The position numbers and the translations under genes were made by a program. DNA of 64,000 bases from Rhizaria sp. SCN 62-66 (taxonomy: Eukaryota), in NCBI GenBank assembly GCA_001724265.1, contig MEDY01000079.1, positions 62,001 through 126,000 of the forward strand, written 5' to 3'. Positions 29,328 through 57,100 of the stretch are shown here, in pieces. Position 1 is the first letter of the stretch, and each line of letters opens with the position of its first letter. A model generated the notes under the pieces. That model ran no database searches, had not been told where the DNA came from, and saw only the letters and a list, made by a program, of their open reading frames with translations.

Positions 29328-29663
29328 TTACGCCTTCTTATCGGCGGCGGCCGCAGCGGCCTCCTCGGCCTCGCGGCGCGCGCGCTCAAGCTTGCGCTGC
29401 TGCTGCGCCTCCTCCTGCTTGCGCGCGCGCGTGGTGACGTCGCGGTCAACGCGCGCCTGCAGCGCGGCGCGGCGCGCCGCCACAGCGTCGATGAGCCACT
29501 CGAGCGCGTGTGCCAGCGCCGCCGCGGCCGCGGGCTCAGGCTTGCCCTGCGCCAACAGCTTTGCAGAGCACGGCACCACGTGGAACAGGTCCGAGTGCGC
29601 GGACTAAAACGAGTGGAGCAAAAATGAATAACAAAAGTGGTCTTGTGAGTCAATATAGCTATA

Positions 29664-29698
<35 letters not shown>

Positions 29699-31212
29699 AA
29701 ATGCGTGACTTTCAATAGAGAAGACGAGTTCATGATTAGATAATAGATGATAGAGCGTACCTTAATCTTGAGCTTGACAATAACCTCGTGAGGCGTGATG
29801 TACCCCTTGGCGTCGTCATCATCGTCGGTCTTATTGAGCAGCACCAGCACGGGCTTGTCCGTCACTGACTCGTGAGCGAGCAGTGCCGCCCAGTCCGCCG
29901 CTGCGGTGTCCAGCGCACCGCGGTCACGCGCGTCGAGCACGAAAACGACGCCGTGCACGTCGGCGTAGTAGTGCGGCCAGATGCCTTTAATCTTGGCGCC
30001 GCCGCCGAGCCCGAACGCGCGCACCGGCCGCGCGCGCGCGCCGACCGGGAACACGTCCAGCTCGAAGCCGTTGGTCGGCGCCACGCTGGCTTCGGGTTCG
30101 TTCTTGAGTACGTTGACAATGGACGTCTTGCCCGCGCCCTGCGGACCGACCACGGCCACCGTCGTCTCGAACGCAGCCTTCCTCTTGCCGCCGCGGCGCT
30201 GCTGCTCCTGCTGCTGCTGACTGGCGTTACTGCCGCCGTTCTTGCGGAGCGCGCCGCGGTCGGGCTCGGGGCTCTCGTCGTCGGTGGGCGCGGGGGGTGC
30301 AAAGGCGCCGCAGGCGGTAATAAGCACGGGCTGCACGGGCCGCTCCATGCGCAGTGGCACGGCGTTGAGAGCGGTGAGCGCCTCCATGCCCAGCACGATG
30401 CGGCCGAATACGACGCGCTTGCCGTCGAGCGCGGGCAGCGCCTTGAGCGTGACGTAGAACTGCGAGTTGTTGGTGTGGGGCGAGCCGGCGGAGGCCATGG
30501 CAAGCACGCCGGGCCCGTCGTGGCCGCACTCGAGTGACTCGTCGGGGAAAAAGGGCCCGAAGATGGACTCACCGCCGTTGCCGCGGCCGGACACGACGTC
30601 GCCGAACTGCAGCCACGCGTCGCGTACCACGCGGTGCATCGGCGTGTTAAGGAAATGGAGCGCCGCGCCAGAGGGCGCCACGCCGCGCTCGCCCGAGCAC
30701 AGCGCAAGAAAGTTCTCCACCGTCTTGGGGCACCGCGCGGCGAATAGCTCGACGACTATGCGGTGTACGGTCGGCGCCGAGGAGCCCTCGGAGGCGGGGA
30801 TCGTGAACTCCAGAAACGCAAACTTGCTCTGGCCCTGCTTAGCGGCAACGTACGTGGCCAGCTGGTGCTCGGCGATGGCGGCGAACTGACCCTGCAGCTG
30901 CGCGTACGTCTTGCGGTCGGACCGCGGGTCGCCGGTCTGGTAGAGCTGGTCTGCCCATGCCACCAGCTCGTCTGTCGCGCCCACGTAGCCCACCACGCTA
31001 TGCGAGACCAGCGGCAGGTCCGTCGTGTGGTCATATGCGCGCCCGCCCAGCTCCTCCTTGGCGCGCGCGAGGTATTCGAGCCACTCGGCCTCGACCAGCC
31101 CGACCACGCGAAGCTTGAGCCCGGGATCCTCGGTCACGATGTCCTCCGCCACCAGCCGCGCCTCGTGGAACAGAGGGGAGCTCAGCGACCCTGAGACTGT
31201 CAGAATCGGCAT
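29328..31212 (-). CDS. Fusion of PPIL6-like cyclophilin and ARL13-like small GTPase with coiled coil; exons 31212-29761, 29603-29328
   Basis: CPKTVENFLALCSGE, HRVVRDAWLQFGD, GGESIFG, NNSQFYVT; then GPQGAGKTS, PTNGF, GLGGG..IKGIWPHYY, LLNKTD, LEWL plus coiled coil; ends TAA. Confidence 0.85.
29663..29701. repeat. (AC)7 followed by a ~25-nt A run, inside intron 29760-29604
   Basis: Read directly. Confidence 0.85.
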
Positions 31213-32910
31213 CTGTAGTATAGTTAAAACACAAATCAAGGCAACATGTCGCGAAACTGTGAACTTGTCGCGTGCTAATCCTTCTTGAAAGGCAAACTCG
31301 AACCCTTGCGCTCAATCGTTCAAAACAGTCAAGAAAAACAGCCATAAAACTGACAGATAACCGTCAATTGAAATGTGAATAAGAATATCTAAAAACAATA
31401 AAAGCAATTAACATGGTGATATAATTATGTTTCATGTGATGTCTTCTGTAGCTCACTATGTTGGATACAAATTCGACTCGTTGGTAGCCGTTACGTCCAC
31501 ACTCGGAGCAGCCGCTCAGTCATCGCCAAGAACCAGAGTATGAATGGCATATCTGTGTATATAAGTGTTTGAACCAAAGAATGTGCATCTTTACATCAAC
31601 ACATTGTTTTATAACCTATATCACAGAAATTATTCCTGAATCCGTCATTGTCGCGAGAAATGACTCGTGATTCTTTCCGAAGTCTAACGGTTGCCTCTAT
31701 ATCGTACGCCTCTCTGCGCGACATCCATAAATCAAACTACCAATCACTTCAAACTCGGTGCGTGGTGCAGTTTGGCTTCTAATAATAGCGCGCGCGCAAC
31801 TATGAATATCTGCAATGTTTGGACTCTCTTCGACTCGTAGCATCGGTCAATCAGTAACTTCAAGTTGCGCACACTTCGCCGCATGTTCAGTTGAAAGTCG
31901 TAACGCTCTGGATTGCAAGAATAATGCAACAGCAGGCCTGCGGCATATAGAAACCCGCTGACAAAGCACGATGCGCTGGATATCGAGGGGTTTTCACGAC
32001 CGTATGAGAACGAGATCGCACGCCACACAGAGTATAGGATAACACGAAATGCGCACCCACCAATTATCGTCGTATATTCACTTGAAGTGAGATCCTAGAC
32101 ATGATGTCTCTCTCCCGGATATAAAAGCCAATTGCTAAGGCAAGACTATTGCTGCAACGTTGCCGAACGCAGGGTATCAACGACTTGAAGCGGTGTATGA
32201 CTTGAAGTTCGCAACGATGTACGTTTGTGGTTGTGACAGAATCGAACTGCAATAGTTGCACTGCTGATTATAACTTCGTATGTCGTGGAATTTTAAATAA
32301 ACCACTAAATACACAGTGCGATCACTGTGTCGACTGTGGGCGTTGATGCGACGGCACTCTCACCTGGCAGGAGGGCGGCCTGACTTTTCGCCACGACACC
32401 CTAGACCCTGTTGATGTGACCCGCCAGAAACCTGCCTTCGACGTGCGAAACAAACATCTGCAGTATGGGGTTGCTAGACCGTTGTTGCTATGAAAACCGA
32501 TAATCCATAACTTAAGTATACTGAATCATTTGGGCATTTAATAATATTCTCTTGAACTGAGTTCTTGCTTGTGAATTCACTTGATCACAGTAGTGGGTCT
32601 CTCAGTTCACTTAAAGCTTGCGCTGCACTCCTATCAAGTTGCTCATGCTATGAATCATGCGTTCTTCGACTAGGATTACGCGTTTTTGCAACGAAATTGT
32701 GCTTGTACAGCGGATTATAGCTGTTCTATCGCGTTATGACTTTTTCCTGCTTGCGTAGAATGATGATGTCTTTAAGACCCTGCTCCTGACCCTCGCTGCC
32801 TCTTCTTTCTCTCACATCTCTCTGTCCAACTCTTTCTCTGCACTATTTTTTGCCAATCGCATTGTCTTGCCCGTTTTTAACGCGTTGACTCTTTGTAGCC
32901 CCCGCTTGAA

Positions 32911-35900
32911 ATGGCTTCAAAGCAGTTTCAAGTGCTGTCGATGACGACGCAGGGCATCCAGGACGCCATCAAGGCGTCTCTGCAGAACCCACCGGATGTG
33001 GAGGACTACACCTTCGAGGAGCGCTACTGCCGCGGTGTCAACCGCGTTGTCCGTCCCAAGCAAGACGAGGTACGCACCCCTGCCCCCGCCCCGCACCCGC
33101 TTCAAGTTGATATCGTTTGCACTTAAATCTGCTTTGTATTGACTCGTATTCTTCGACACTCGTTCACTCTCTCACTTGATTGTTCTTGAAACTCTACACC
33201 CCTGTCCCTGTCCTCCCGATCTATTACTCTGTCGCTCTGCCGCGGTGCACGCCGTGTTCAGCTGGACCGGCTGCACTTCACGCGTCTGGAGAGCACCATC
33301 ACGCGCCGCGCCAACGTGTTCGAAGCCTTCCGCATGAACTGCGTTGCGCACCCGCGCAAGGTCATGGCCGTGTGGTACGAGGACGCCACGGCCGAGACGG
33401 TGCGCTGGACCTACGGCGACCTGTGGGCGCGCGCGCGCGCGATCGCGGCCGTGCTCGAGCGCCAGCACGGAGTGCGCCGCGGCGACCGCGTGCTCATGGT
33501 GTACGAGCCCTGCGTCGACTTCTTCACCGCGTTCTGGGCGCTGGTGGGGCTGGGCGCGATCGCAGTGCCCGTGTGCCCGCCGGATCCGTTCTCGCCGACG
33601 GCGGACGCCACGGACAAGCTGCTGGCCGTGACCAAGGACGCCGAGCCAAAGCTCATCCTGACCTCGCGTAAGTACAAGGACACGCTCGCGGCCGCGCGCA
33701 CCTTCCTAGGCGCCGAGTTCCAGGCCGTGCTGGAGGAGAAGGAGCACATCCTCGACTTCAGCCGCCGCGTCTGGGTGTCGACCGACGACATTCCGGTCTC
33801 GGCCGCGGGCAGCTGGACTTTCCCGTCCTCCGAGCTCACCAAGGAGGACGACGTCGTGTTCCTGCAGTACACCTCCGGCTCCACTGGCGGCGCCAAGGGC
33901 GTCATGGTGCAGCACAAGACGCTCATGGCCAACTGCATGAACTGCGCACTGCTCACGCAGGGCCTCGGCTCGATCTACACGTACCAGTTCTCGCTCGGCG
34001 TGTCGTGGCTCCCGACGTTCCACGACATGGGGCTCATCGGCTTCCACGTCGCGCCCGTCGTCATCGGCGGCACCATGATCTACTTCTCCCCCATCACCTT
34101 CATCCAAAACCCCGTGATGTGGCTCCAGGTCATCTCCAAGTTCCGCCACGTCTCCTCTGGTGCGCCGCCCTTCGCGCTCGACCTCTGCGCGCGCCGCGTC
34201 ACGCCCAAGGAGCTGCAGGCGCTCGACCTCTCCGGGCTAGAGATCCTCGTGCTCGGCGCCGAGCCAATCCGCGCGAGCTACATGGAGGAGTTCGGCCGCC
34301 GCTTCGCGCCCTACGGCTTCAACCCGCGCGCGTACATGACGTGCTACGGCATGGCCGAGAACGTGCTCCACGTCGCCGGCAAGTGGTCCAACCAGTACGA
34401 GGCGCGCAAGATCCTAGTCGACTCGGCGCTGCTCAATCGCAACCGCCTCGCGGTGTACCGGGACGAGATCGTCGCGCTGCCCGCGCAAGCCGGCCGGCCC
34501 TACCTCACCGCACGCGCCGAGCTGCTGGCCCCGCTCGCCGCGGGTGCCGACAAAGACGCGCAGTGGCTCGTGTCGTCCGGCGAGCTCATCAACTTCGACG
34601 ACCCGGTGACTGTTGACCCCGAAAACCACGCGGACCTGCGCGCGCGCGCGCCGCACTTCTACCGCCGCGAAGTCGCGTCGTACATCGTTATCGTGAACCC
34701 TGACTCGCAGGAGGAAGTGGCCGACGGCACGGTGGGCGAGATCTGGATCGCGTCGCCGTCGCGCACGGCTGGGTACTGGAACAAGCCCGAGCTCAACGAG
34801 CGCAACTTCCGCGCCTTGCTGCGCCGCGCCGTCAAGGGCGAGACGCAGGCGCTGCTGACCTGGGCGCAGACCAAGGGCCGCTACCTCACGGGCACCGTCG
34901 ACCCGGACACGGTCAAGCTCGAGGACGTGAAGCGCTCGCGCGAGCCCGTCGTGGGGTTCCTGGAGAACTGCGTGGACAAGCGAACTGGCGACGTGCACTG
35001 GATGCGCTCGGGTGACATGGGCGTCGTGTTCGACAACAACATCTTCATCACGGGCCGCATCAAGGACATGATCATCATCCGCGGCCAGAACTTCTACGCC
35101 GACGACCTGGAGCACTGTATCACGTCGGGCAACTTCCGCGGCGCAGACGTCTCCGCGGGCGCCAAGACGACGGCGCTGACGCGCGACCCCTCGCTGCAGG
35201 CGCTGTCGGCGCTGCGGCCGGGCTCCGCAATCGCGTACTCGATCACGATCCCCTCGGACGGCACGGCCACCTGCGCGGCAACGCAGACGCGAACCGAAGG
35301 CGAGCACCTCGCCGTCGTCGTCGAGCTGCGCGCGGACCCCAACGAGGACGACGACGACGAGTCTGACGGCGACGACGCCTCCGCGTCGGCCTCGGCCTCG
35401 GCGGGTGCGAATAGCGACAGCGACGACGACAACGGCGATGCGGCCGTCAGCGCGTCGGCCAAGTCCGTCGCAGGCATCGCCGACGGCGGCCGCGTGCGCC
35501 GCAAGCGTAAGTCGGGCAACCAGATGCCGCTGTGGCAGCGCGTGCTGATGCGCTACGGCGGGCCCATCGTCAGCGGTATGTCTGCGCTGTACGAGCGCAA
35601 CGAGCAGGCCGTGCACGCACAGACGGCGCACGAGCAGCAGCAGTCTGGCGCGAGTGGGCGCCGCGGCATGGGCTGTGCGGCGCGCGCGAAGCTCATCGCG
35701 CAGCACAGCATGGTGCTGGCCGTGAAGCGCGGCATCGACACCGCCAAGTACATCTCGGCGTACCTGAACCCGCAGCAGGCCACGCGCGACGCCGTCGCCA
35801 GCCGCGACGCCTCAGCCGCGGCCGCCGCCAACGGCGCGCTCTCCGCGGGCGCTGTCGGCGACGGGGAAAGCAAGAACAAGGCGGCACGGCGCCACCTGCC

Positions 35901-38900
35901 GATGGACGCGGACACGCAGCGCGTGCGCGCGCGGTACACGGACGCGCAGCTGGAGCAGGTCGCGAGCGCAGTACGGCGCGCGATCTCGATTAAGTTCATG
36001 CTCGTGGTGGGGCAGATCATCTTCATCTCGCCCAAGACGATCAAGAAGACCTCCTCAGGCAAGAAACGCCGCAGCGACACGACCAAGGCCATCGGCGAGG
36101 GACTGCTCGACCACCGCATCGTCAAGCGGTGCTACTCCAAGAGCATCGAGGCATACCTCAAGCTCAAGGGCGGGCTCGCGCTGGGACTCAAGCGCACCGA
36201 GGACGTCACCGCAGCCGCCATCTCTGCGTCGACTGTCGCCGCGCCTGCCGGCGGACCGGCCTCACACACCGCCGGTTCGTACCACAATGCCCAGCTCGCG
36301 CGCTCTACCAACGCTACCGGCGCTGTCGTTAGCAACACCGCCGTCGGTACCAACGCGCGCGCCGCGCCTGCGTCATCGTCGACGTCGTCGTCCATCAGCA
36401 ACCACGGCAGCATCAACCAGCAGCAGCAGCAGCAGCAGGGTCACTTCGGCGGTACCGTGGGCGTGTCTCTTGGCGGCGCTGACGGCGCGTACCTGCAGCC
36501 GGGAACTTACGTGCCCGGCGCACACGGTGCCCACGGCGCGCACCACGGCGGCGGCGCGGGCGGCGCAGTGCCGGGCGTGGTGTACAACTCCGGCGACCGC
36601 TACCAGCTCGCGCCCATGGAGCTGCTGCCGCCGCGCGCGAGCACGGCCGCAGGCGTCTCGGGCGCGGTCAGCCGCGAGGAGGCGTGGGCCGCGGTCGAGG
36701 CCGTGAAGCGCAAGGCCGCGGCGACGCGCTTCGACGACGCCAAGCGCCGCATCCTCGGCATCGTCGTCGCCGAGCTCAAGGAGGCTCAGGCGGGCAGCGC
36801 GGCGGCCGACGGCGAGGACGAGGAGACGGCGCGCCAAACGCGCGCCTTCACCCGCGGCGACGGCGCGCCGCGTGAGGACGCGAGCGGCGTCACGGTGGAA
36901 TACCTCGAGCAGATGGCGCGGCTGCCGGCCGACTCGCAGCAGCGCAAGCTGGACGAGTACGGGCTCGACTCGATGACGGGCTTCAAGCTCGCCAAGTCTC
37001 TTGCGCGCGAGTTCGACCTGCCGGCTTCGATGATGGGCCCGCACCTCTTCCTTCAGGACCCGACCATCGACGGCATGGTGCAGGTCATGGTCAACCTCGT
37101 CCACCTCCAGGCCACGCGCGCCGAGGAGGACTTCAAGCGTGAGTTCGACACCCCCAAGCCCTCCGCAGTCTCCTCTGCCGCCGCTGCCGCGGCTGGCAGC
37201 GCGAACAGTGCGCAGACGGTGCATGAGAGCGCGGCGGCGCAGGCGTACCGCTCGACGCCCGACGCGGACCGCGTGCCGTACGTGCTTGCGATTGGCACAG
37301 CCGTCCCGCGCACGTGCGCGCCGCAGTCCGAGCTGCTGGGCGCGATGATCCCGCCCATGCGGCTCGACGCGCGCGCGCAGGAGCGCTTCATGAAGATCGG
37401 CAACAACTCGGGTGTGCACACGCGCTACAGCGTGCTCGACTCGCTCGACGACATCTTCTGGGGCAAGGAAGGCGTAAACACCGACAGCGACGAGTACATC
37501 GACGCGCGCCAGGAGGTGTACAAGCGCGAGTCGGTGCGGCTGTCGGTGCAGTCGTCGATCGACTGTCTGCACGACTGGCTGGGCGCGCGCAAGCTCAAGA
37601 CGGACGATGAGCGCAGCGCCGAGCGCCTCGACGCCTTCCTCGACCTCGAGCGCCGCCACACCGAGGCCCAGCAGAAGAAAGCCGAGAAGAAGTGCCAGGC
37701 CGACGCCGACGCCGCCTCCGCCGCAGCGGCGGCCGCGAGCACCGGCACCAACGCGGGCGCCAGCGCGAGCGCCGCGGGCAAGAAGGGCGGCAAGCGCGGC
37801 GGCAAGCACTCCGCGTCCGCCGCTGCGACCGCGGCCGACGAGGAAGAAGAGGAGGAGGCCAAGTGCGCCCCCGGCGCCGCCAGTGCCGCTGCGTCCTCTG
37901 CATCCGCGTCGGCCGCCGCGCCGCGGTGCGCGCCGGAGCGCCCGCTGGCCGGCAACGGCATCGACAAGGAGGACCACAGCTACCTGAGCAACTTGGCGCA
38001 GACGCGGCTGGGGCGTACCATCACGCACGTCGTCGCCGTGACGTGTACGGGCGTCATCGTGCCGGGGCTCGAGTTCTACATCATGCAGGCGCTGGGGCTG
38101 CCCACCGGCACGCAACGGCTCTCGATCCAGTTCATGGGGTGCTTCGGCGCTATCTCGGGCATCCGGTGCGCGTCAGCGCTGGCGGCGGAGAACCCGCGCA
38201 ACCGCGTGCTGGTAGTGTGCACGGAGCTGTGCACGCTGCACATGCAGCTCAACGACCGCGTCGACAACCTCATCGCCACGGCGCTCTTCGCCGACGGGTC
38301 CGGCGCGTTCATCGTCGGCTGCGCGCCGACCCCGGCGGAGCGGCCGCTGTTCTCGGTGCAGTCGTGCTCTTCGTACGTTATCCCGGGCACGCTGGACCAG
38401 ATGGCGTGGGAGATGACCAAGACGGGGCTCCACATCGGGCTCGCCAAGGAGATCGCGGGCGAGATCTTCACGTGCATCGGAGACTTCCTCAACGACATGC
38501 TCAAGTACTCGGCCGACCCCAAGGCACCGCAGCACCGCGTGCGCGCGGCAGACTGCAACTGCGCCGTGCACCCTGGCGGCCCGCTCATCATCAACACAAT
38601 CCAGAACGTGTTAGGCATCGAGCAGGTTGGCGACGGCCACGGCGGCGGCGAAATCGACCCCGCGGGCCCCACAGCCGAGACGTGGACAATCCTGCGCGAC
38701 TATGGCAACATGTCCTCGGCAACGCTCGTGTTCGTGCTGGACCGGATCCGCGAGAACGACGAGAAGCGCGCCAAGTGGACGCCCACCATCGCCTTCGGAC
38801 CAGGGCTCAACATCGAGGGCGCGCTGCTCAAGGCCTGCTTCCCGGGCCGCGCGGGCACAGAGCAGTGGCAGCGCGCGCACGGCGCGGAGCTCACGCGCGC

Positions 38901-39087
38901 CATCGATGACGCCAAGAAGGCCCACCTCGCCCGCAAGGCCGCCATCACCTCAGCCTCCGCTGTCACCTCAGCCTCCGCGGCCGCCGCTGCTGCGGTCACC
39001 ACGAGCGCGGGCTCCACTGGCAGCGGCACTGCAATCACGGCTGCGCTTGCAACCGCCGTGACTGCGGCCGGCGGCAAGCGCCAGTGA
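32911..39087 (+). CDS. Fatty acyl-AMP ligase - acyl carrier protein - type III polyketide synthase fusion (~1990 aa); exons 32911-33069, 33262-39087
   Basis: FLQYTSGSTGGAKG, SWLPTFHDMGLIG, GAEPI, CYGMAE, GEIWI, RSGDMG, GRIKDMIIIRGQNFY, KTSSGK; YGLDSM; AIGTAVP, VTCTG, FMGCFGA, ALFADG, HPGG, YGNMSSAT, FGPGL; ends TGA. Confidence 0.92.
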
Positions 39088-39841
39088 GCGCAGCGTGCGA
39101 CGCAGAGGTCGCTACTAGACAGCGTGTGCTTGCTTGCTGCGAGCAGACAGTTTGTTAGGCTCTTGCGCGCAAATGGAAGGGGGGCCAGCTGTCTGCTGGC
39201 GGCGTCGTTGCAACGACAGCGGGCGGGCCACTCGGCAGCAGCATCGGAGACTGCAGCGGCTGCGGTGTTGCGCTGCGACTGCTGCGCCGCGACTCTCTCT
39301 TTTATTCTCTTATTAGACCGCGCTGCGTGCGCGGGACTAATGTTTTGTACTGGACTACGGGGCTATTCAGTGATCCATGCGGAGATAGCTTTGGGAAAAA
39401 TGTAGATTTGATCACAGTAAAAGATACGGTGTGTGTTTTTAAGCTTAGAATTTTGATGGTGGAGCAGGATACGATGACTCAATGACTTTTGTTTGAAATT
39501 GCGTTGAAGAACAAGACCGCTGGTAGGCGGCGATACGAGGGATATAGGCAAGGTGCTGGTGTGGAAGTAAGATGTCTCACATTAACAATGTGTGATTTGC
39601 CGTAAAACAATACAGAATGTGAAATAAACAAACATAAGTACGTCAGAAAATGGTAAAATAGCTGTCTTCGAAGAGCTGCGAGGCGGTCCCTCGACGTGCA
39701 AAAGCGTCAGTGGGGTTTCTTATATTGTCCTGAAAACCGTTCAGTGTCCGTTGAACCCGGTATGAATATCAACACAAAACGTGAAATGTGTGCTTATATA
39801 TATTCACGCAATTATACTTTCTAAAAATGACTCTGTATAGA

Positions 39842-50337: not shown

Positions 50338-53277
50338 TTAGGCCTTGACGAGCTCGGCAACGACCTTAAAGGCAACGCTGACGGGTACGCCCAGCTTGAG
50401 CACTGCGGAGCGCGTTGCGGCGTTGTTGATCACCACAACCTCGGCCGCAGCCTCGGGCTTCGAGGCCAGGATGAGCTTGGCGGAGCGGACCTTAAAGCCC
50501 TCGGGGACGCCCGCAAAGCTGAGAGTGTCGACGTTGTTGGCGGCCACGGCGCCGTCGAGCGCGGGCGCCACTGGCACGATGCTCGGCAGCGGCGCGCGGT
50601 CCGAGGTAAAGACGATCGTATCGCCCTCCGCGTGTGCGGCGAAGCGCACGTAGACATAGTGGCCCTGCTGGTATTTGTGCGACGCGCCGTCGTCGATGTA
50701 GAGCGAGCCCGCGGCCGCGCGGTCCGCGTCGAGCGCGGCCACGAGCGAGAATGGGTCCAGCGTCATGGCGTTGGTCGAGCGGCGCGGGCGGCGCTGCAGC
50801 GGGACAACGTGGCCGCCGCGGTACAGCACGGGCACGTAGTCAGCCGGCGCGGGCAGAGTGACCTCGCCATCGCTGTCGACGGCCGGGGACGCCACGGGCG
50901 CGAGCGTGGCCGCGTGGAACCACTGCGAGCGCACCACAGCGCCTGCGGCGTTAGTGGTGAGCGGGATGTAGGCCACGACCTCGGTCTTGCCGGGCGCGGT
51001 CACGGGCACGACCATCACGGCGGGGCCAGTCAGGTACGCGCCGTCGCGCGCAAACGTCGCCGGGTCGGCCGGGAACTCATACACGAGCGGGCGCATCGGC
51101 GGCACGCCCGTGGTGTTGGAGAGACGCATCTCGGTGTAGAGGTACGGCAGGTGCGCGTAGCGCTGGCGCACGGCGGCCCGCAGGCGTGACGTGTGCGGCT
51201 CGCCGAAGAGCCATGGCTCGCGCCGCTTGGTCTCGATGTGCGCGTGTGCGCGGAAGAAAGGCGTGAGCACGGCGGCTTGGTACCAGCGCTCGAGCAGCTC
51301 GGCGGTCGGGTTCCCAAAAAAGCCGCCCACGTCGGCGCCGGCGAAAGAGATGCCGCCGACCGAGAGCGAGAGCAGCATCGCCGTCGTGTCGTGCAGGAAT
51401 TCCCACGTGGCGAAGTTGTCGCCGGTCCAGATCGCGCCGACGCGCTGCGTGCCCGCGAAGAGTGCGCGAGAGAGCACGAACGTGCGGTGCGTGGGGATCG
51501 CGGCTCCGGGCACGGGCGAGACCGACACCGCGCCCGCGGGCGCCCAGTCGGGCAGCACCGTGGTGGGCGGCGTCACAACGGCGGCCTGGCGCGCGGCGAG
51601 CCCGTCCTTGTTGGCCATGTGGTAGTAGAGCCCGTAGACGTTATGCACGTCGCGGTGCTCGGCCGCGCCACCGAAGTGCAGCACGTCCTTGGGCATCGTC
51701 ACCTCGGGCCCGCTGAACACGGAGGGCTCGTTCATGTCGTTCCACACGTGCAGCGTGGCGCTGCTGCCCGGGTAGCGGTCCAGCGCGTAGTTCGCCGCCC
51801 ACTCGCTGCGGACCTCGGCGCGCGCGAAGTCGGGGTACACGGACCGGCCGGCCCAGCAGTCGCCCTCGTAGACGTCGCCGCCGGCCACGCGCGTGAGCAG
51901 GTCCTTGTCGCGCAGCTGGCGGTACACGCCGTAGTTGTCGTCCTTCTTGACGTGCGGGTCAATGATGGTGACGAGGTGGCGGCCGTGCTGCGCCAGCTCG
52001 GCCTGCATCGCCACCGGGTCCGGGAACAGCTTGTCGTCCCACGTGAAGTACCGCTTGCCGTCCGTGTGCTCGATGTCGAGCCAGAGAATGTCGTACGGGA
52101 TGTCGTGCGCCTCGAAGCCGGCGTTGACAGCCAGCACGTCCTCGTGCGACTTGTAGTTCCAGCGGCATTGGTGGTACGCCATCGCGAACCGCGGCGGCAG
52201 CGCGGGCAGACCGGTAAGCTTGTGATACTGCGCGGCGAGCGCGGCGGGCGAGGCCGTGGCGAAGAGGAACAAGTCCATCACACCCGTCTCGGCCACCCAG
52301 TGCGTCGCCTCACCAGAGCTCTTAGCTGCGGGCGCCATGACGTCGACCCACATCTCTGACGGGTTCATGAAAAACGCGCCCGCGGTGAGCGGCCGGCGCG
52401 TCGCGCCCTCGCCAACGAGCCCGTGCGCGACGGCCAGCGGCACGGCGCCGTAGAGCGCCATCGGCGAGTCGAGCTTGTGCTCGAACACATCGAGGTTGAA
52501 GAGGCGGTACGGCTCGGTGTACTTGGCGCCGTCGCCGCGCGTGCGCTTGAGCGCGAGCGACGTCGCGTGCTCGGGCAGACCGTAGAGCGCGTCCGCAGCC
52601 GGAAACGTCACGTCGAGCGACACGGCCGTGGGGCCCGAGCGCTTCTTGTCGGTGTGGCCGTCGAAGCGCTCGCTCCACATCTCTTCGGCGTCGCTGGGTA
52701 GGCGCTCGCGACGCTGCTCGAAGCCCAGGAGCTGCTCGCCGTTAACCACGGCCGCAACGACGCCGCCCGACGTAAGCTCCACGCGGAACGGCGCAAAGTG
52801 CACTGTGGCGCAGAGCTGTTGCTGTGCGTCGCAGAGCGTGGCGCTGGCGGCGTCGGTCTTGGTCGTGACGCCCTCGGCCAGGTCTAGCGCGGTCGGGATC
52901 AGCACGTCGCCCAGCGGGACCTCCCAGCGCTTGCCCTTGGCGGCCACCACGGCATCGCCCTCCTCAGCGCGCAGGCGCACGACGCCCGCGGCAAGGAACG
53001 TCAGCGAGGCCTTGAGCGGCGCTACAAACGTCTCGGGCGACTCGCCCTCGTTGACGAGCTCGAACGTCACGCCCGAAGCAGTCTGCATCACAGCGCTACC
53101 CTTAACGGTGTAGTTACTCGGCGCGCGCTCGCGGTTGCGCTTGCAGTAGGCCGTCTGCTGGCACGTGCGGAACTTCTTCTCGTCGACTGCGGCGGAGAAA
53201 CCGAGCAGCATGCTGCAGACGAGAACGAAGAGCGCCAGCCGGCGGGCGCCCATCATCGGTGCGATCTTCAGGGGCAT
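50338..53277 (-). CDS. GANAB: Glucosidase II alpha subunit (GH31)
   Basis: Signal peptide then AVDEKKFRTCQQTAYCKRNR; PYRLFNLDVFE; HQCRWNY; WLDIEHTDGKRYFTWD; WNDMNEPSVF; WTGDN; ends TAA. Confidence 0.93.
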   Translation of the reverse strand: MPLKIAPMMGARRLALFVLVCSMLLGFSAAVDEKKFRTCQQTAYCKRNRERAPSNYTVKGSAVMQTASGVTFELVNEGESPETFVAPLKASLTFLAAGVVRLRAEEGDAVVAAKGKRWEVPLGDVLIPTALDLAEGVTTKTDAASATLCDAQQQLCATVHFAPFRVELTSGGVVAAVVNGEQLLGFEQRRERLPSDAEEMWSERFDGHTDKKRSGPTAVSLDVTFPAADALYGLPEHATSLALKRTRGDGAKYTEPYRLFNLDVFEHKLDSPMALYGAVPLAVAHGLVGEGATRRPLTAGAFFMNPSEMWVDVMAPAAKSSGEATHWVAETGVMDLFLFATASPAALAAQYHKLTGLPALPPRFAMAYHQCRWNYKSHEDVLAVNAGFEAHDIPYDILWLDIEHTDGKRYFTWDDKLFPDPVAMQAELAQHGRHLVTIIDPHVKKDDNYGVYRQLRDKDLLTRVAGGDVYEGDCWAGRSVYPDFARAEVRSEWAANYALDRYPGSSATLHVWNDMNEPSVFSGPEVTMPKDVLHFGGAAEHRDVHNVYGLYYHMANKDGLAARQAAVVTPPTTVLPDWAPAGAVSVSPVPGAAIPTHRTFVLSRALFAGTQRVGAIWTGDNFATWEFLHDTTAMLLSLSVGGISFAGADVGGFFGNPTAELLERWYQAAVLTPFFRAHAHIETKRREPWLFGEPHTSRLRAAVRQRYAHLPYLYTEMRLSNTTGVPPMRPLVYEFPADPATFARDGAYLTGPAVMVVPVTAPGKTEVVAYIPLTTNAAGAVVRSQWFHAATLAPVASPAVDSDGEVTLPAPADYVPVLYRGGHVVPLQRRPRRSTNAMTLDPFSLVAALDADRAAAGSLYIDDGASHKYQQGHYVYVRFAAHAEGDTIVFTSDRAPLPSIVPVAPALDGAVAANNVDTLSFAGVPEGFKVRSAKLILASKPEAAAEVVVINNAATRSAVLKLGVPVSVAFKVVAELVKA

Positions 53278-54141
53278 TAGAACCCTGGCTCGCGTCTATG
53301 CAAAAGAAAGAAAGGGAGCGGGGACATGTAGAATAGAGGTTAAAAGAGTAAAAGAGTCACATTTCGGAGCAACTCAAGTGGAAGAAGAAGGTGGCCGCGT
53401 CACCTGGATCTACTCCACCGCTTTAGCATGCATGAAATAAGGGCAACTCAGATAGATATGCAACATTTCTAAAATATGTCGTATGATATGACGACCACTC
53501 TGTCTCAAAATACCATTTCTTCACGTATATCTCGATGAGCTTAATTGGAAATCAAAGACTTTAACATGCCCTCGATTCGTCAAAGTCGACTCGAAGGGCC
53601 GGCCGAGTGCGCACGGTCACTTTGTGACTCAGCGACTCCCAAAAACACATCTACAGCGGTCTAAACGACACACATAGAAGTTATGATTTGATATTATATC
53701 TGTCCAGCACTATTTTTGTTTGTTTATAGGTTTTAACACGATCTTGACAATCACGGAACGCCCCGTCGTCGGCCACCTAAGCGCTGAAGAGCTCGTCGAG
53801 ATGTCGTCAATCGTATCTCGTTCAAATTCCGGTGGGATACTGGCCGCGTCGAGAGCTTTCTGAGTCACATCGCTGCTTTCTAATACTAAGGCTTTGCTGT
53901 GGCGCTGCTCAACTCTTCTCTCGGCTTTGCTCAGTCGCCCTCTCGAGATCTTCGTTACCTTTCGCTCGTTGCGCCATGGCAAGTCCACTAGCGGCCGAAT
54001 CTATCACCCTTGTCTCATTTGTCTCGACTCCCACAACGTTGTTTCCCTTCTTGCCACGCAGGGCAGTTTTCTTTTTTATTTAACCTCTCGACGCGTGGAT
54101 TGGTTTGGCCCGACTACTTAGTGGTTTCCGTCGCAGCCAAC

Positions 54142-57100
54142 ATGTGGTCCGCCCTCCGTAGCCTCCTGTGGAGCCGGCTCGTGCTGCGCAAGAGGAACTG
54201 GGTCACCAGCGTCCTCGAACTCGTCGTCCCTATGCTAGCCTTCGTCGTCATCTTGTACCCGTTCGCCGTTGACGTGTCGTCCCCGCTGGAGCGCGCGATC
54301 ATCCCCACGGAGCCCATCGACCGCCTAGTGTACCAACAGCGCAGCGTCCTGTCGGTGTTTGTGGAGCCCGAGGCGTTCGCCAAGCCGCTCGCCACGTACC
54401 TCAAGGCCTTCAACATCACGCTGCTCGACGCGCCCAGCCGGAGCGGCTACCTTATCACGCTCGACGTCACTGGCAACAGCGGCTGGACCGCCATCAAGCA
54501 CCCCGATGCCGACGTCCTCGGCCCGACGAGCACCAACGCCCGCGCCAGCGCACACGCCGATCCCATCCGCGCCGCCTTCGCCGCGCGCGCCGTGCGGGCC
54601 TCGCGCCACCGCGCATTGGCACTGCGCAAGTCGACGGCGACTGCGACCGCTGCGACCGCTGCGACCGGTGCAGCCGGTCGCAGCAATGCGGTTCGTCGCG
54701 GCAGCACCGTGCCTCGCGGTGACCTGGCGCCGCGCGACGACGACGCCGAGGACGACAGCGGCAGCAGCGACAGCGGCGGCAGTGACGGCGACAGCGACAG
54801 CGAGAGCGACAGCGGCAGCGGCAGTGGTGACGAGAGCGACAGCGGCAGCGGGGGCGGCAGCGGCGGCGACGACGACGACGACGGCGATGCGGCCGAGAAG
54901 GAGGTCGAAGAGTTCCCGTGGCGCCCCACGTACGCGTACTCGGTGCGTCCGCAGGCGCGCTCGCCGCTGCTCTTCTCGTGGTGGAACGAGCCCTCGTCGC
55001 TCTTCTCCATCTTCCCGCGCACGTACATGGACGCCGACGCGTGCTCAGCGTTCCTGGACTGCGGCAAGGACGCGCGCGGGCCCGGCGTCGAGACGCCCGA
55101 CGCGGCCGCGCGCGGACTCGTCATGTTGCAGCACCTCGTCAACTCGTTTGTGCTCGAGCTCCAGGGCGCGACCGCGCGCGGGCCGTCGTCCACCGCGGCG
55201 CCGGCGGTAAAGCTGAGCAAAGACCAGAAGCTTTCGTTCGTGCCCATGGCGCGCGCCGCGGGCACCGTGCTGCCGTCGACGGCGGGCGAGACTTCTCTGC
55301 TAGCCGCCGTCGCCGTCTTTGTCGCCGTGCTCTGTCTGGCGTCGATGCGGCTCAGCGCGGACCTGTTCAAGTTCCGCCACTCGCGCGGCTTCGACGCGCT
55401 GCGCCTCATGGGCACTGGCCCCGGCCTCGTGTGGTTCGCGACGGCGGCCGTCGCGCTCGTCGTAGTTCTGGGCTCGTCGTTGCTGCTTGCGCTCGCCGCC
55501 ACGGCGCGCGTGTTCCCGCGCACGTCGCTGCTGCACGCCTGGGTCATGTTTCTCGCCATGTGCAGCGCAATCACTGCCTACCTCGCCTGCGGGTCGGTCC
55601 TCGCGCAGCGCTCCAGTCTGCGCCTGCTCGTCGGCGTGCTGGTCAACGCCGTGCTCGTCGCCGCCGTGGGCATCTACAACGCGACCACGCCGACCGCGCG
55701 GCTGTTCGAGAACGTGCCTGACACCGTCACGGCCATGCTGGCCGTGCTGTGGCCGTCCATGGCCGCCGTGCAGATGCTGTCCGCGCTCGTCCGCCTCGAG
55801 GGCTCCGGCGTGGGGCTTATCCTCGAGGCGATCAACACCAACACGCTCGGCGTGTCTTACCTCGTCTACGTGCCCTGCTCTTTCTTCGCCGCGTGGATGT
55901 ACATCGTGCTGGGCGTGTACTGCGACAACGTCTACACGCTCGACCGCAGCATCGCACTGTCGTGGTTCTTCTGCCTCTCGCCCTCGTACTGGTGCGGCAC
56001 GCGCAACAACCGCGCGTCGGGCGTCATCACCAGTCTCTTCGTGGACCGCAACTCGCACGCCATGGTCGGATATCTCGAGGCCGGTGATGACGACGGCGCC
56101 CGCTCCCGCGGCGGCGCCCCGCTCAGCGCCATCGACGACGTCAACCTTGCCACCGGGCCCGGCGCTCCGCAACAGAGCGCAGGCGGTACAGGTGCAGACG
56201 CAGGCGCAGCGGCGGCGGCGGCGCAGGCGGCGAGCCGGGTGGAGCCCGCGCCGCCCGCGCCCGCGGTGCCCGGCTCCAGCGGCGGGCGCCCGTCGACGAC
56301 GGCGGCGACGGCATTCGTGCAGGTCTCCCAGCTGACGTACGTGCCGCCGACGCGCCAGTCTGCGGCGCCCGTGCTGGCGCTGTCCGAAGTGAGCGCCGAC
56401 TTCTACCACGGGCAGATCACGGCCGTGGTCGGCGACAGCGGCGCGGGCAAGACGACGCTGCTCAACGCCGTGGCCGCGCGCATTATGCCGACGAGCGGCA
56501 GCGTGCGAGTGATGGGCACGTCGACGCAGGCCGACGCCGAGAGCGTGCGTGCGACCGTGGGCATCTGCCCGCCCTGGAGCGCGCTCGACCCCGAGCTCAC
56601 CGTCGAGCAGACGCTCGTGCTCTTCGGCGGCATCAAGGGCATCTCGCGCTGGGAGCTGGGCGGCGCGATCGAGTTCATCCTGCAGCTGTACGCGCCCGCG
56701 GCCGGCGGCGCGCCCGCGGACACGGCGCTGCTGCGCGCGACGCCCGTGCGCGCTCTGCGCCACTCGCAGCGCCAGCGCCTCGCAGTCGCCATCGCCCTGC
56801 TGGGCCCCGCGCAGGTGATCCTGCTGGACGAGCCCGCTGAGGGACTCACGGCGCGCGACCGCGCCGGCATGTGGCAGCTGCTGCGCCGCGTCAAGGAGGA
56901 CAAGACGGTGCTGGTGGCCACGCGCCATGTGTCGCAGGCGCTCGAGATCGCGGACCGCGTGCTGGTGCTCTCGCACGGCCAGCTCAGCGTGTGCGGCTCC
57001 CCGCGCTGGCTCGCCGCCAAGCTACACACCGGATACACCATCTCGCTCCGCTACGCCGCCCATAACGCCGCTGCTGCGATTGCTGCTGCTGTCAATGACA

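What the first reader, a model, noticed from the sequence alone, without database searches (positions are those of the whole stretch)
32911..39087. Single-chain FAAL-ACP-type III PKS: a self-contained lipid-polyketide assembly line in a protist
Seen: one stop-free frame joins an adenylation domain with FAAL-type motifs (~33316-36130), a carrier domain with GLDS Ser (36970-36972) and a chalcone-synthase-like domain with Cys (38140), His (38569) and Asn (38707). Established: FAALs load fatty acids onto ACPs without a CoA thioester; type III PKSs primed with long acyl chains make alkylresorcinols or alkylpyrones; type III PKSs are normally stand-alone, the known eukaryotic fusion being the Dictyostelium Steely type I FAS/PKS-type III hybrids. 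Inference: this protein activates a fatty acid, tethers it and extends/cyclises it in cis, perhaps making phenolic lipids for cyst wall, defence or signalling. I do not recall this three-domain architecture being characterised.
Basis: partly seen in the sequence, partly recalled or inferred. Interest (0 to 1): 0.85.

Follow-up and report, generated by a model that had tools for sequence, protein, structure and literature searches.

The report
Fused fatty-acid loader and polyketide synthase
An unidentified single-celled eukaryote carries one expressed gene that joins a fatty-acid-activating enzyme, a carrier domain and a chalcone-synthase-type polyketide synthase, a natural fusion that recurs in other uncultured microbes and that I could not find described in print.

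Summary
A two-exon gene on the + strand (32911-33069 and 33262-39087) encodes about 1,994 residues. It has an adenylation domain that scores best against fatty acyl-AMP ligase (FAAL) models, a carrier domain (Ser at 36970-36972) and a C-terminal type III PKS. One spliced, gene-sized contig from a cDNA-labelled run covers all three domains, so this is one transcript, not three genes. Thirteen other proteins share the architecture: twelve unnamed metagenome or Logan proteins and one Physarum transcript. The carrier Ser, the A10 Lys and the PKS Cys and His are invariant in 14 of 14.

The PKS domain is closest to Dictyostelium Steely1 among solved structures. It falls in one clade with all carrier-fused type III PKSs. 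Bacteria encode the same logic as adjacent genes.

The likely mechanism is fatty acid → acyl-AMP → acyl-S-ACP → PKS cysteine, then malonyl-CoA extension to an alkylresorcinol, acylphloroglucinol or pyrone. The product is unknown. Nine literature searches found no description of the fusion. I rate it a new variant of a known kind, interest about 0.62.

The parts
32897..39400 (+). Transcribed span seen in one contig. The contig runs about 125 nt beyond 39400, to roughly 39525.
   Evidence: run X1, record 1 (6,461 nt, 2 other letters). It covers 32897-33067, skips 192 nt with GT..AG ends, then covers 33260-39400.
32911..33069 (+). Exon 1: ATG plus 53 codons.
   Evidence: The exon 1/exon 2 junction peptide is read straight through in homologues P0004 and P0020.
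33070..33261 (+). Spliceosomal intron: 192 nt, GT..AG, phase 0. It holds the two in-frame stops.
   Evidence: It is skipped in the X1 contig and retained in an X5 contig covering 33003-33403.
33262..39087 (+). Exon 2: 1,941 codons plus the stop.
33334..34452 (+). FAAL-like adenylation domain, N-terminal part (P0001 residues 48-420). It includes YTSGSTG (33868) and the WLPxxHDM / SPxxFxxxP / PPF elements.
34990..36087 (+). Adenylation C-terminal subdomain: the TGRIKD (A8) motif at 35050 and the A10 Lys957 at 36061-36063. It is interrupted by the insert listed next.
   Evidence: blocks aligned to chain positions 430-473 and 501-556 of 7r7e.
35122..35910 (+). Low-complexity insert of about 260 residues (Ala/Ser/Gly/Asp-rich) inside the C-terminal subdomain.
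   Evidence: query 621-883 against chain 473-501. Composition.
36907..37083 (+). Carrier (ACP / PP-binding) domain. The phosphopantetheine Ser1260 is at 36970-36972, in the LDEYGLDS motif.
   Evidence: 19.9 bits; 9 of 14 relatives match PP-binding; Ser 14 of 14; weak matches to carrier proteins.
37270..38841 (+). Type III PKS domain (P0001 residues 1360-1883). Cys1650 at 38140-38142, His1793 at 38569-38571, Asn1839 at 38707-38709.
37615..38007 (+). Low-complexity insert of about 130 residues in a loop of the PKS N-terminal half. Only the closest relatives share it.
   Evidence: The HMM envelope is split in two in P0001, P0003, P0004, P0005, P0020, P0021 and P0024.
38845..39084 (+). Ala/Thr-rich C-terminal tail of 80 residues.

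Best explanation
This is one eukaryotic gene for a three-domain enzyme, FAAL-ACP-type III PKS.

Inferred mechanism:
1. The N-terminal domain adenylates a free fatty acid. It passes the acyl group to the phosphopantetheine arm on Ser1260 of its own carrier domain, not to CoA.
2. The C-terminal type III PKS, presumably a homodimer like its relatives, takes the acyl starter from the carrier onto Cys1650.
3. It extends the chain with malonyl-CoA and cyclises it to an alkylresorcinol, acylphloroglucinol or alkylpyrone.

It works like a Steely enzyme whose type I fatty-acid-synthase loader has been replaced by a ligase. It also works like a bacterial FAAL-ACP plus type III PKS gene pair fused into one chain.

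Shown here: the gene structure, one spliced transcript contig, the domain identities, and conservation of the catalytic and carrier residues across a family.

Inferred, not shown: every chemical step, the chain length of the starter, the product and its role.
For: **Gene and transcript**
- One 6,461-nt contig of run X1 skips exactly the 192-nt GT..AG intron and covers 32897 to beyond 39400.
- A contig of X5 keeps the intron, so that is the DNA form.
- A polyA RNA run (X3) has 8 listed small contigs spread from 33918 to 37922.
- Homologues P0004 and P0020 read straight through the exon junction.

**FAAL**
- The best five NCBIfam models after a generic NRPS/PKS one are all FAAL. FadD32 scores 287.9 bits; the best CoA-ligase model scores 197.
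- All 14 PDB sequences with E ≤ 1e-40 are FAAL-type. Their depositor names vary.
- The domain aligns in four blocks along a whole 572-residue FAAL chain.
- The CoA-rejecting positions given for EcFAAL (W224, P226, M231, F279, helix 251-259; PMC8460268, passages) fall at a constant +48 on W272, P274, M279, F327 and S299-P307.
- Those positions are kept in 14, 14, 13 and 13 of 14 relatives.

**Carrier**
- The PP-binding match is at E 8.8e-4.
- 9 of 14 relatives match at E ≤ 1e-3, the best at 1.7e-13.
- The Ser is invariant in 14 of 14 and the preceding Asp in 13 of 14.

**PKS**
- The Pfam N and C domains score above their cut-offs.
- Cys and His are kept in 14 of 14 and Asn in 12 of 14. The two exceptions have aberrant C-termini.
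- Steely1 (2h84) is the best solved match at 2.8e-57; the best chalcone synthase is at 6.5e-42.

**Precedent for carrier-primed type III PKSs**
- ArsB and ArsC take acyl groups from the ACP of ArsA, and germicidin synthase uses acyl-ACP (PMC6274091, passages).
- In cylindrocyclophane synthesis a FAAL loads decanoate on an ACP ahead of a type III PKS (PMC11837247, passage).

**Bacterial split form**
- In L070 a 683-residue FAAL-ACP gene is followed after 5 nt by a 386-residue type III PKS gene.

**Co-descent of the domains**
- The FAAL and PKS trees give the same inner groupings for the main clade.
Against: - No biochemistry exists for any family member that I could find.
- The carrier domain of this protein scores just below Pfam's cut-off (19.9 against 20.8 bits). 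Its single-sequence fold was too poor to use (pLDDT 56.8). Its PDB matches are weak (E 0.18-1.5).
- All FAAL NCBIfam scores lie far below the family cut-offs, because three inserts break the domain.
- The mapping onto the EcFAAL residues rests on a constant offset. I did not see the EcFAAL sequence.
- No phosphopantetheinyl transferase or tailoring gene is visible among the neighbours, which are housekeeping genes. No genome is held for the window.
- Run X1 is labelled by the tool 'RNA? (probably DNA)'. The spliced contig argues for cDNA, but an intron-less DNA allele is not excluded. The 'joined form in other runs' table was not given.
Confidence: 0.8

Rival explanations
1. The architecture is the same, but the starter is not an ordinary fatty acid. 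The adenylation domain would load a short, branched, hydroxylated, dicarboxylic or aromatic acid. The product would then not be a phenolic lipid.
For: No specificity-determining residues were analysed. Similarity to FAALs gives the class, not the substrate. In the PKS, the position of CHS Gly256 is a Trp and that of Phe265 an Ile, as in Steely1 (Trp and Leu). Steely enzymes use medium-chain (C6-type) starters by my recollection.
Against: Every close solved relative of the adenylation domain is a fatty-acid-activating enzyme.
Confidence: 0.12
2. The carrier-bound acyl chain is not handed directly to the PKS domain. It would first be modified in trans (desaturated, halogenated, or extended by another synthase), or the carrier would serve another enzyme altogether.
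For: Relatives P0157 and P0164 place KS and methyltransferase domains and a second carrier between the ligase and the type III PKS. In cylindrocyclophane synthesis, type I modules act between the FAAL-loaded ACP and the type III PKS (PMC11837247, passage).
Against: No such domain lies in this protein and no such gene among its neighbours. The three-domain order is kept in 14 proteins.
Confidence: 0.06
3. The adenylation domain acts as an acyl-CoA ligase, the PKS uses acyl-CoA as ordinary type III PKSs do, and the carrier-like stretch is a linker.
For: The PP-binding score is below Pfam's cut-off. Most type III PKSs use CoA esters.
Against: The Ser is invariant in 14 of 14 inside a DS motif. 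9 of 14 relatives match PP-binding. FAAL models outscore CoA-ligase models. The CoA-rejecting residues are conserved.
Confidence: 0.03
4. It is a gene-model or assembly artefact, a pseudogene, or a bacterial contaminant.
For: The window appears to come from a metagenome. The database protein P0002 was called from an internal GTG by a prokaryotic-style caller.
Against: There are 1,941 uninterrupted codons and a spliceosomal intron. A gene-sized spliced contig and an independent intron-containing contig come from another study. The neighbours are eukaryotic genes. The catalytic residues are conserved.
Confidence: 0.02

Closest known systems
Dictyostelium Steely enzymes (StlA/StlB): type I fatty-acid-synthase-like PKS fused to a C-terminal type III PKS
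   Same: A eukaryotic single chain in which a carrier domain directly precedes a C-terminal type III PKS that it primes. Steely1 is the best solved match of the PKS domain (2.8e-57). Steely-like proteins and the FAAL-fused proteins share one 99*-supported clade of 46 rows. The active-site positions look alike: Trp at CHS Gly256, Ile or Leu at CHS Phe265, Thr at CHS Ser133 (the CHS numbering is recalled).
   Different: No KS, AT, DH, ER or KR domain is present. The starter is taken up as a ready-made acid by an ATP-dependent ligase instead of being built in situ. Identity to Steely-like PKS domains is 37-40%.
Bacterial FAAL + ACP + type III PKS systems encoded as separate genes (Myxococcus xanthus alkylresorcylic acid system, Hayashi et al. 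2011; the cyanobacterial cyl/mks clusters; metagenome locus L070)
   Same: The same three functions in the same order of action. L070 has a FAAL-ACP didomain gene immediately followed by a type III PKS gene. mksC is an AMP-binding-ACP didomain in a cluster with a type III PKS (PMC8086630, passage).
   Different: The proteins are separate, and in the cyl pathway type I modules intervene. L070's match is only 28% identical in its best segment. The Myxococcus paper was seen only as a title in a reference list; its details are recalled.
Azotobacter ArsA-D: a type I FAS whose ACP hands C22-C26 acyl chains to the type III PKSs ArsB and ArsC for cyst-coat phenolic lipids
   Same: Direct ACP-to-type III PKS transfer of a fatty acyl starter. 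The products are alkylresorcinols and alkylpyrones (PMC6274091, passages).
   Different: The proteins are separate, with a FAS rather than a ligase as loader. Whether ArsB Trp281, the resorcinol/pyrone switch, corresponds to Trp1739 here could not be tested. ArsB and ArsC were not among the listed PDB matches.
FAAL-ACP loading didomains at the head of type I PKS/NRPS lines (7r7e 'Polyketide synthase', the best solved match; by recollection the olefin synthase loader)
   Same: The FAAL domain aligns over its whole length at E 2e-86. The ligase-then-carrier order is the same.
   Different: The downstream partner is a type III, not a type I, ketosynthase. Three inserts totalling about 370 residues lie in the ligase.

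Membership tests
Fatty acyl-AMP ligase (FAAL) branch of the ANL adenylating superfamily | ANL core motifs, including the A3 P-loop-like YTSGSTG, A8 GRxKD and the A10 catalytic Lys | tested here: met
   YTSGSTG at 33868, TGRIKD at 35050, TSSGKK with Lys957 at 36061. The Lys is kept in 14 of 14 relatives. AMP-binding scores E 3.4e-57.
Fatty acyl-AMP ligase (FAAL) branch of the ANL adenylating superfamily | Closer to FAALs than to acyl-CoA ligases | tested here: met
   FAAL NCBIfam models score 234-288 bits; the best CoA-ligase model scores 197. All 14 PDB sequences at E ≤ 1e-40 are FAAL-type. All scores are below the models' own whole-protein cut-offs.
Fatty acyl-AMP ligase (FAAL) branch of the ANL adenylating superfamily | CoA-rejecting elements: bulky Trp, Met and Phe in the canonical pocket, the FAAL-specific helix, and Pro-lined alternative pocket (EcFAAL W224, P226, M231, F279, 251-259; PMC8460268) | tested here: met
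   W272, P274, M279, F327 and S299-P307 fit at a constant +48 offset. They are conserved in 14, 14, 13 and 13 of 14 relatives, and P300 and P307 in 14 of 14. Caveat: the EcFAAL sequence itself was not seen. The offset agrees with the alignment ends reported.
Fatty acyl-AMP ligase (FAAL) branch of the ANL adenylating superfamily | FAAL-specific insertion in the N-terminal domain | tested here: inconclusive
   The stretch after YGMAENVL aligns with the matching stretch of FAAL 7r7e up to chain position 356, and is followed by about 55 extra residues. No CoA-ligase comparator could be fetched (one search failed), and the insertion's limits are recalled, not read.
Fatty acyl-AMP ligase (FAAL) branch of the ANL adenylating superfamily | Makes acyl-AMP and transfers it to holo-ACP, not to CoA | not testable with these tools
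   This needs an enzyme assay.
Acyl/peptidyl carrier protein (PP-binding) | Match to the PP-binding profile at or above its cut-off | tested here: not met
   19.9 bits against a 20.8-bit cut-off (E 8.8e-4) for this protein. Aligned relatives do pass, for example P0147 at 51.0 and P0146 at 38.7 bits. 9 of 14 match at E ≤ 1e-3.
Acyl/peptidyl carrier protein (PP-binding) | Conserved Ser in a (D)S motif for phosphopantetheine attachment | tested here: met
   GLDS, with Ser1260 at 36970-36972. The Ser is kept in 14 of 14 and the Asp in 13 of 14 relatives. It aligns with the Ser of carrier proteins in PDB (weak E-values).
Acyl/peptidyl carrier protein (PP-binding) | Four-helix bundle fold | tested here: inconclusive
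   The single-sequence AlphaFold2 model is all-helical, with the Ser at the first residue of a helix. Its mean pLDDT is 56.8, which is too low to rely on.
Type III polyketide synthase (chalcone/stilbene synthase family) | Both Pfam halves above their cut-offs | tested here: met
   Chal_sti_synt_N scores 114.2 bits and Chal_sti_synt_C 59 bits, each against a 27-bit cut-off.
Type III polyketide synthase (chalcone/stilbene synthase family) | Cys-His-Asn catalytic triad | tested here: met
   Cys1650, His1793 and Asn1839 align with the triad of Steely1 and chalcone synthase. They are kept in 14, 14 and 12 of 14 relatives.
Type III polyketide synthase (chalcone/stilbene synthase family) | Iterative malonyl-CoA condensation and cyclisation; homodimer | not testable with these tools
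   This needs enzyme assays and structural work.
Steely-type hybrid (type I FAS/PKS fused to type III PKS) | N-terminal type I domains (KS, AT, DH, ER, KR) | tested here: not met
   None is found in the 1,964-residue frame at E ≤ 0.01. The Steely-like hits P0013-P0018 carry them.
Steely-type hybrid (type I FAS/PKS fused to type III PKS) | Carrier domain followed by a C-terminal type III PKS of the Steely clade | tested here: met
   In the tree, one 99* clade of 46 rows holds the FAAL-fused, Steely-like and KS-MT-fused PKS domains (quick search, SH-aLRT support only).

The most novel reading that the evidence does not exclude
FAAL-ACP-type III PKS proteins are an uncharacterised family of single-chain enzymes, old within one group of uncultured eukaryotes. 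They would be a second natural solution, alongside Steely, for feeding a tethered starter to a type III PKS.

Carrier-fused type III PKSs as a whole (ligase-, FAS- and KS-MT-loaded) would descend from one ancestral ACP-type III PKS unit whose loading module has been swapped repeatedly. By analogy with DIF-1 and MPBD in Dictyostelium and the cyst lipids of Azotobacter, the products may be differentiation signals or encystment lipids of free-living protists.
Probability: 0.45. Interest if true: 0.75.

Novelty: new variant of a known kind. Interest (0 to 1): 0.62.

Why it matters
Type III PKSs are textbook stand-alone enzymes that take CoA-linked starters. Steely has been called unique as a natural fusion (PMC9489281, abstract as listed).

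This gene adds a second, simpler fusion. It turns a free fatty acid directly into a polyketide starter without CoA, in one polypeptide. Trees of both domains suggest the fusion is old and that loading modules have been exchanged in front of a conserved ACP-type III PKS unit.

For enzymology, it offers a compact natural scaffold for making alkyl-phenolic compounds from fed fatty acids. It is also a test case for how a carrier domain docks on a type III PKS.

For protist biology, it points to unexplored phenolic-lipid or signalling chemistry in uncultured eukaryotes. The runs holding this gene are labelled wastewater and activated sludge.

Tried and rejected
- **Whole genome:** none is held for the window. 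I could not look for a phosphopantetheinyl transferase, paralogues or rRNA.
- **CoA-ligase comparator:** The genome search by handle failed. The FAAL-specific insertion therefore could not be measured against a CoA ligase.
- **Carrier-domain fold:** the single-sequence AlphaFold2 model had mean pLDDT 56.8. It is not used as evidence.
- **Carrier domain against PDB:** 8 matches at E 0.18-1.5, of which 5 are carrier proteins. This is a weak hint only.
- **Organism identity:**
  - The neighbouring glucosidase II alpha gene gave one unnamed relative at 67% identity. Named relatives (green algae, plants, Mortierella-like fungi, MMETSP protists) reach only 40-52%, mostly 41-47%.
  - The protein atlas said only 'Eukaryota'.
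  - No lineage can be named.
- **ArsB/ArsC switch:** ArsB and ArsC were not among the PDB matches listed. The Trp281/Gly284 cyclisation switch could not be mapped.
- **Metagenome scan with the family alignment:**
  - It returned mainly bacterial FAAL genes, because one search pattern was FAAL-specific.
  - Only 2 of the 80 loci kept (L051, L070) matched through to the PKS, and both are split bacterial arrangements.
- **Runs X3 and X4:** they hold small shares of the stretch. Several X4 pieces are 21-25-nt matches inside long unrelated contigs and mean nothing.
- **Biosynthetic cluster:** rejected. The neighbours are a phosphodiesterase, a B-box protein, an aminotransferase, a synoviolin-like RING ligase, cyclophilin/Arf, an RsmB/NOP2-type methyltransferase, GH31 and an ABC ATPase.
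- **Literature:**
  - Nine searches found no description of an adenylation/FAAL-ACP-type III PKS single chain.
  - Neither did passages read in PMC8460268, PMC11837247, PMC8086630, PMC6985275, PMC7284882, PMC10366177, PMC10794256 and bioRxiv 10.1101/2024.02.19.579948.
  - Subscription papers and supplements were not visible. These include Supplementary file 4 of PMC8460268 on eukaryotic FAAL architectures and Shimizu et al. 2017. They might mention the fusion.
Full report
**1. Observation**

The frame that starts at 32911 carries two stops before 33190 and is then open to 39087, a run of 1,965 codons. The sequence shows a GT at 33070 and an AG at 33260-33261. These bound a 192-nt, phase-0 intron that contains both stops.

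Pfam finds three domains in the frame (P0001 numbering, residue 1 = window 33193):
- AMP-binding at residues 48-396, E 3.4e-57.
- PP-binding at residues 1239-1297, 19.9 bits, just under the 20.8-bit cut-off.
- Both halves of the chalcone/stilbene synthase fold, at residues 1609-1712 and 1723-1881.

**2. One gene, one transcript**

I laid Logan contigs of four runs on 32600-39400.
- Run X1 is labelled as a cDNA library, although the tool guesses DNA. It holds a single 6,461-nt contig that covers 32897-33067, skips exactly 192 nt with GT..AG ends, and continues from 33260 to beyond 39400, with two other letters. It starts 14 nt before the ATG and ends roughly 440 nt after the stop, so it is gene-sized.
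- Run X5, from a different study, has a contig covering 33003-33403 that keeps the intron. That is the genomic form.
- A polyA metatranscriptome (X3) has 8 listed small contigs between 33918 and 37922, including one across the carrier serine.

Homologues P0004 and P0020 read '...EDYTFEERYCRG...LQDQLDYLHF...' straight across the position of the window's exon junction. This supports the splice at the protein level.

The spliced product is 53 + 1,941 = 1,994 residues. Contigs cannot prove a single mRNA molecule. Even so, an uninterrupted ORF, a removed intron and a gene-sized contig leave little room for separate genes.

**3. The adenylation domain is FAAL-like**

- NCBIfam ranks FAAL models first after one generic NRPS/PKS model: FadD32 287.9 bits, PRK05850 270.1, PRK12476 259.6, PRK09192 258. 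The best CoA-ligase model scores 197. All scores are below the models' own cut-offs.
- Against PDB, all 14 sequences at E ≤ 1e-40 are FAAL-type: 7r7e/f/g, 3kxw, FadD32, 3pbk, FadD23 and FadD28.
- The alignment to 7r7e runs in four blocks over chain positions 6-356, 381-424, 430-473 and 501-556. The whole fold is therefore present.
- It is broken by three inserts of about 55, 54 and 235-260 residues. The last is Ala/Ser/Gly/Asp-rich.
- PMC8460268 (passages) names the elements that make FAALs reject CoA in EcFAAL: W224, P226, M231, F279 and a helix at 251-259.
- At a constant offset of +48, these fall on W272, P274, M279, F327 and S299-P307 of P0001. They are conserved in 14, 14, 13 and 13 of 14 fused relatives, and P300 and P307 in 14 of 14.
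- I did not see the EcFAAL sequence. The offset agrees with the alignment ends reported for 3pbk.
- The classical FAAL-specific insertion could not be delimited for lack of a CoA-ligase comparator (one search failed).

**4. The carrier domain**

- The window's own PP-binding score is marginal.
- 9 of 14 aligned relatives match PP-binding at E ≤ 1e-3, the best at 1.7e-13.
- The Ser is invariant in 14 of 14 and the preceding Asp in 13 of 14.
- Of 8 weak PDB matches, 5 are carrier proteins aligned on the Ser.
- A single-sequence fold was too poor to use.

**5. The PKS domain**

- Steely1 (2h84) is the best solved match at 2.8e-57. The best chalcone synthase is at 6.5e-42 and PKS18 at 2.7e-31.
- The triad aligns with that of Steely1 and chalcone synthase.
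- Using alfalfa CHS numbering, which I recall and which is consistent with the offsets seen against 6dx8:

| CHS position | This protein | Steely1 |
|---|---|---|
| Thr132 | Cys | Ser |
| Ser133 | Thr | Thr |
| Thr194 | Cys | Cys |
| Gly256 | Trp | Trp |
| Phe265 | Ile | Leu |
| Ser338 | Ser | Ser |

- Cys1618, Thr1619, Cys1680 and Trp1739 are each invariant in 14 of 14 relatives.
- The pocket is therefore Steely-like rather than chalcone-synthase-like. This fits an aliphatic starter but does not fix the product.
- In ArsB and ArsC a Trp/Gly exchange flips resorcinol and pyrone formation (PMC6274091, passage). Whether that position is Trp1739 could not be tested.
- A low-complexity insert of about 130 residues sits in a loop before the ITH motif. 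Only the closest relatives share it.

**6. The family**

- I searched the PKS part among proteins of 1,080-3,437 residues. This gave 18 proteins at E ≤ 1e-3 out of the 8,000 candidates scored:
  - the window's own protein;
  - 11 with AMP-binding plus chalcone-synthase domains (P0003-P0012, unnamed JGI or Logan proteins, and P0019, a Physarum polycephalum transcript in EukProt);
  - 6 Steely-like type I/type III hybrids, among them one from Cavenderia fasciculata.
- The exhaustive representative search added P0146 and P0147.
- It also added other layouts: AMP-binding-carrier-KS-methyltransferase-carrier-type III PKS (P0157, P0164), methyltransferase-carrier-type III PKS (P0150), and carrier-type III PKS pieces (P0148, P0104, P0041, P0042).
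- Fourteen fused proteins align at 28-59% identity to the window's protein.
- The only names attached to them are machine annotations.

**7. Trees (quick searches, SH-aLRT support only)**

PKS domains, 92 rows:
- All carrier-fused forms fall in one clade of 46 rows (99*). Its neighbours are stand-alone enzymes.
- The nearest named stand-alone enzymes are from Protochlamydia, Waddliaceae and Babeliales MAGs, at 40-42% identity.
- The window sits in a 24-row clade (98*) made of 13 FAAL-fused proteins plus shorter rows, several of which are on 1-2-kb contigs and are probably fragments.
- The Physarum protein lies in a separate 100* clade.

FAAL domains, 49 rows:
- 11 of 13 fused proteins form one 98* clade with the same inner groupings as in the PKS tree.
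- P0147 attaches next to it (support 89).
- The Physarum FAAL, a long branch, falls among bacterial-like sequences.

My reading is that the two domains have travelled together through the main clade, and that the Physarum-type fusion may be independent. Neither point was tested by an AU test.

**8. Bacterial counterpart**

The metagenome scan kept 80 loci. Only 2 matched through to the PKS.
- L070 has a 683-residue FAAL-ACP gene, followed after 5 nt by a 386-residue type III PKS gene. Sulfotransferase genes flank the pair, on a contig with T9SS-tail proteins.
- L051 has a type III PKS, an ICMT-family methyltransferase and, 3.5 kb on, a FAAL.

The window's gene is therefore the fused form of a gene pair that bacteria keep adjacent.

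**9. Host and context**

- The neighbours are ordinary eukaryotic genes, so there is no biosynthetic cluster.
- The neighbouring glucosidase II alpha has one unnamed relative at 67% identity. Named relatives reach only 40-52%, mostly 41-47%, across green algae, plants, fungi and assorted protists.
- The organism is a eukaryote without a close named genome. 'Protist' is likely but not shown.
- The runs that hold the stretch are labelled wastewater and activated sludge.

**10. Mechanism and novelty**

The best-supported mechanism is ligase-to-carrier-to-PKS priming in cis, followed by malonyl-CoA extension and cyclisation.

The precedents are carrier-primed type III PKSs: ArsA with ArsB/C, germicidin synthase, and the cyl pathway, together with Steely.

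Nine literature searches and the passages read in eight papers gave no description of this single-chain form. Supplements and subscription papers could not be seen.

I file it as a new variant of a known kind. It is not a Steely member, because it has no type I domains. It works like one, with a different loader.

Noticed in passing
P0144 (unnamed representative protein, 4,818 aa): It has twelve Chal_sti_synt_N and twelve Chal_sti_synt_C stretches, apparently twelve type III PKS domains head to tail in one predicted protein. It could be a real poly-PKS or a gene call that runs through a tandem array.
   Followed up: no
P0157 (1,768 aa) and P0164 (1,756 aa); These have a further hybrid layout: AMP-binding (C-terminal part, N-terminus cut), carrier, KS, methyltransferase, carrier, type III PKS. 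They form their own 100* clade within the carrier-fused PKS clade.
   Followed up: partly
L070 8268-14320 (metagenome contig): A bacterial operon-like row: arylsulfotransferase, FAAL-ACP, type III PKS, sulfotransferase, next to proteins with T9SS sorting tails. This suggests a sulfated alkyl-phenolic product in a Bacteroidota-like organism.
   Followed up: partly
P0025 (249 aa): This fragment is 74% identical to the window's PKS C-half but is filed in UniRef under the insect Lygus hesperus. It is more likely a transcript of an associated microbe than an insect gene.
   Followed up: no
window 29659-31311 (- strand): One stop-free frame carries a cyclophilin domain (residues 184-335) followed by an Arf-family GTPase domain (residues 382-502). 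It is either a fusion or two exons or genes in the same frame.
   Followed up: no
window 32897 (5' end of the X1 contig): The spliced contig begins with sequencing-adapter letters, then six letters (GTTTTA) that do not match the genome, then the window from 32897, which is 14 nt before the ATG. The stretch is too short to say whether it is a spliced-leader remnant or a library artefact.
   Followed up: no
window 53992-60816 (+ strand): A 2,274-codon open frame with two ABC-transporter ATPase stretches lies 15 kb downstream. There is no evidence that it is linked to the PKS gene.
   Followed up: no
window 50338-53295 (- strand): A glucosidase II alpha-like GH31 gene. Its best named relatives are only 40-52% identical, mostly 41-47%, and spread over several eukaryotic supergroups. 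The host lineage therefore lacks a close named genome.
   Followed up: partly
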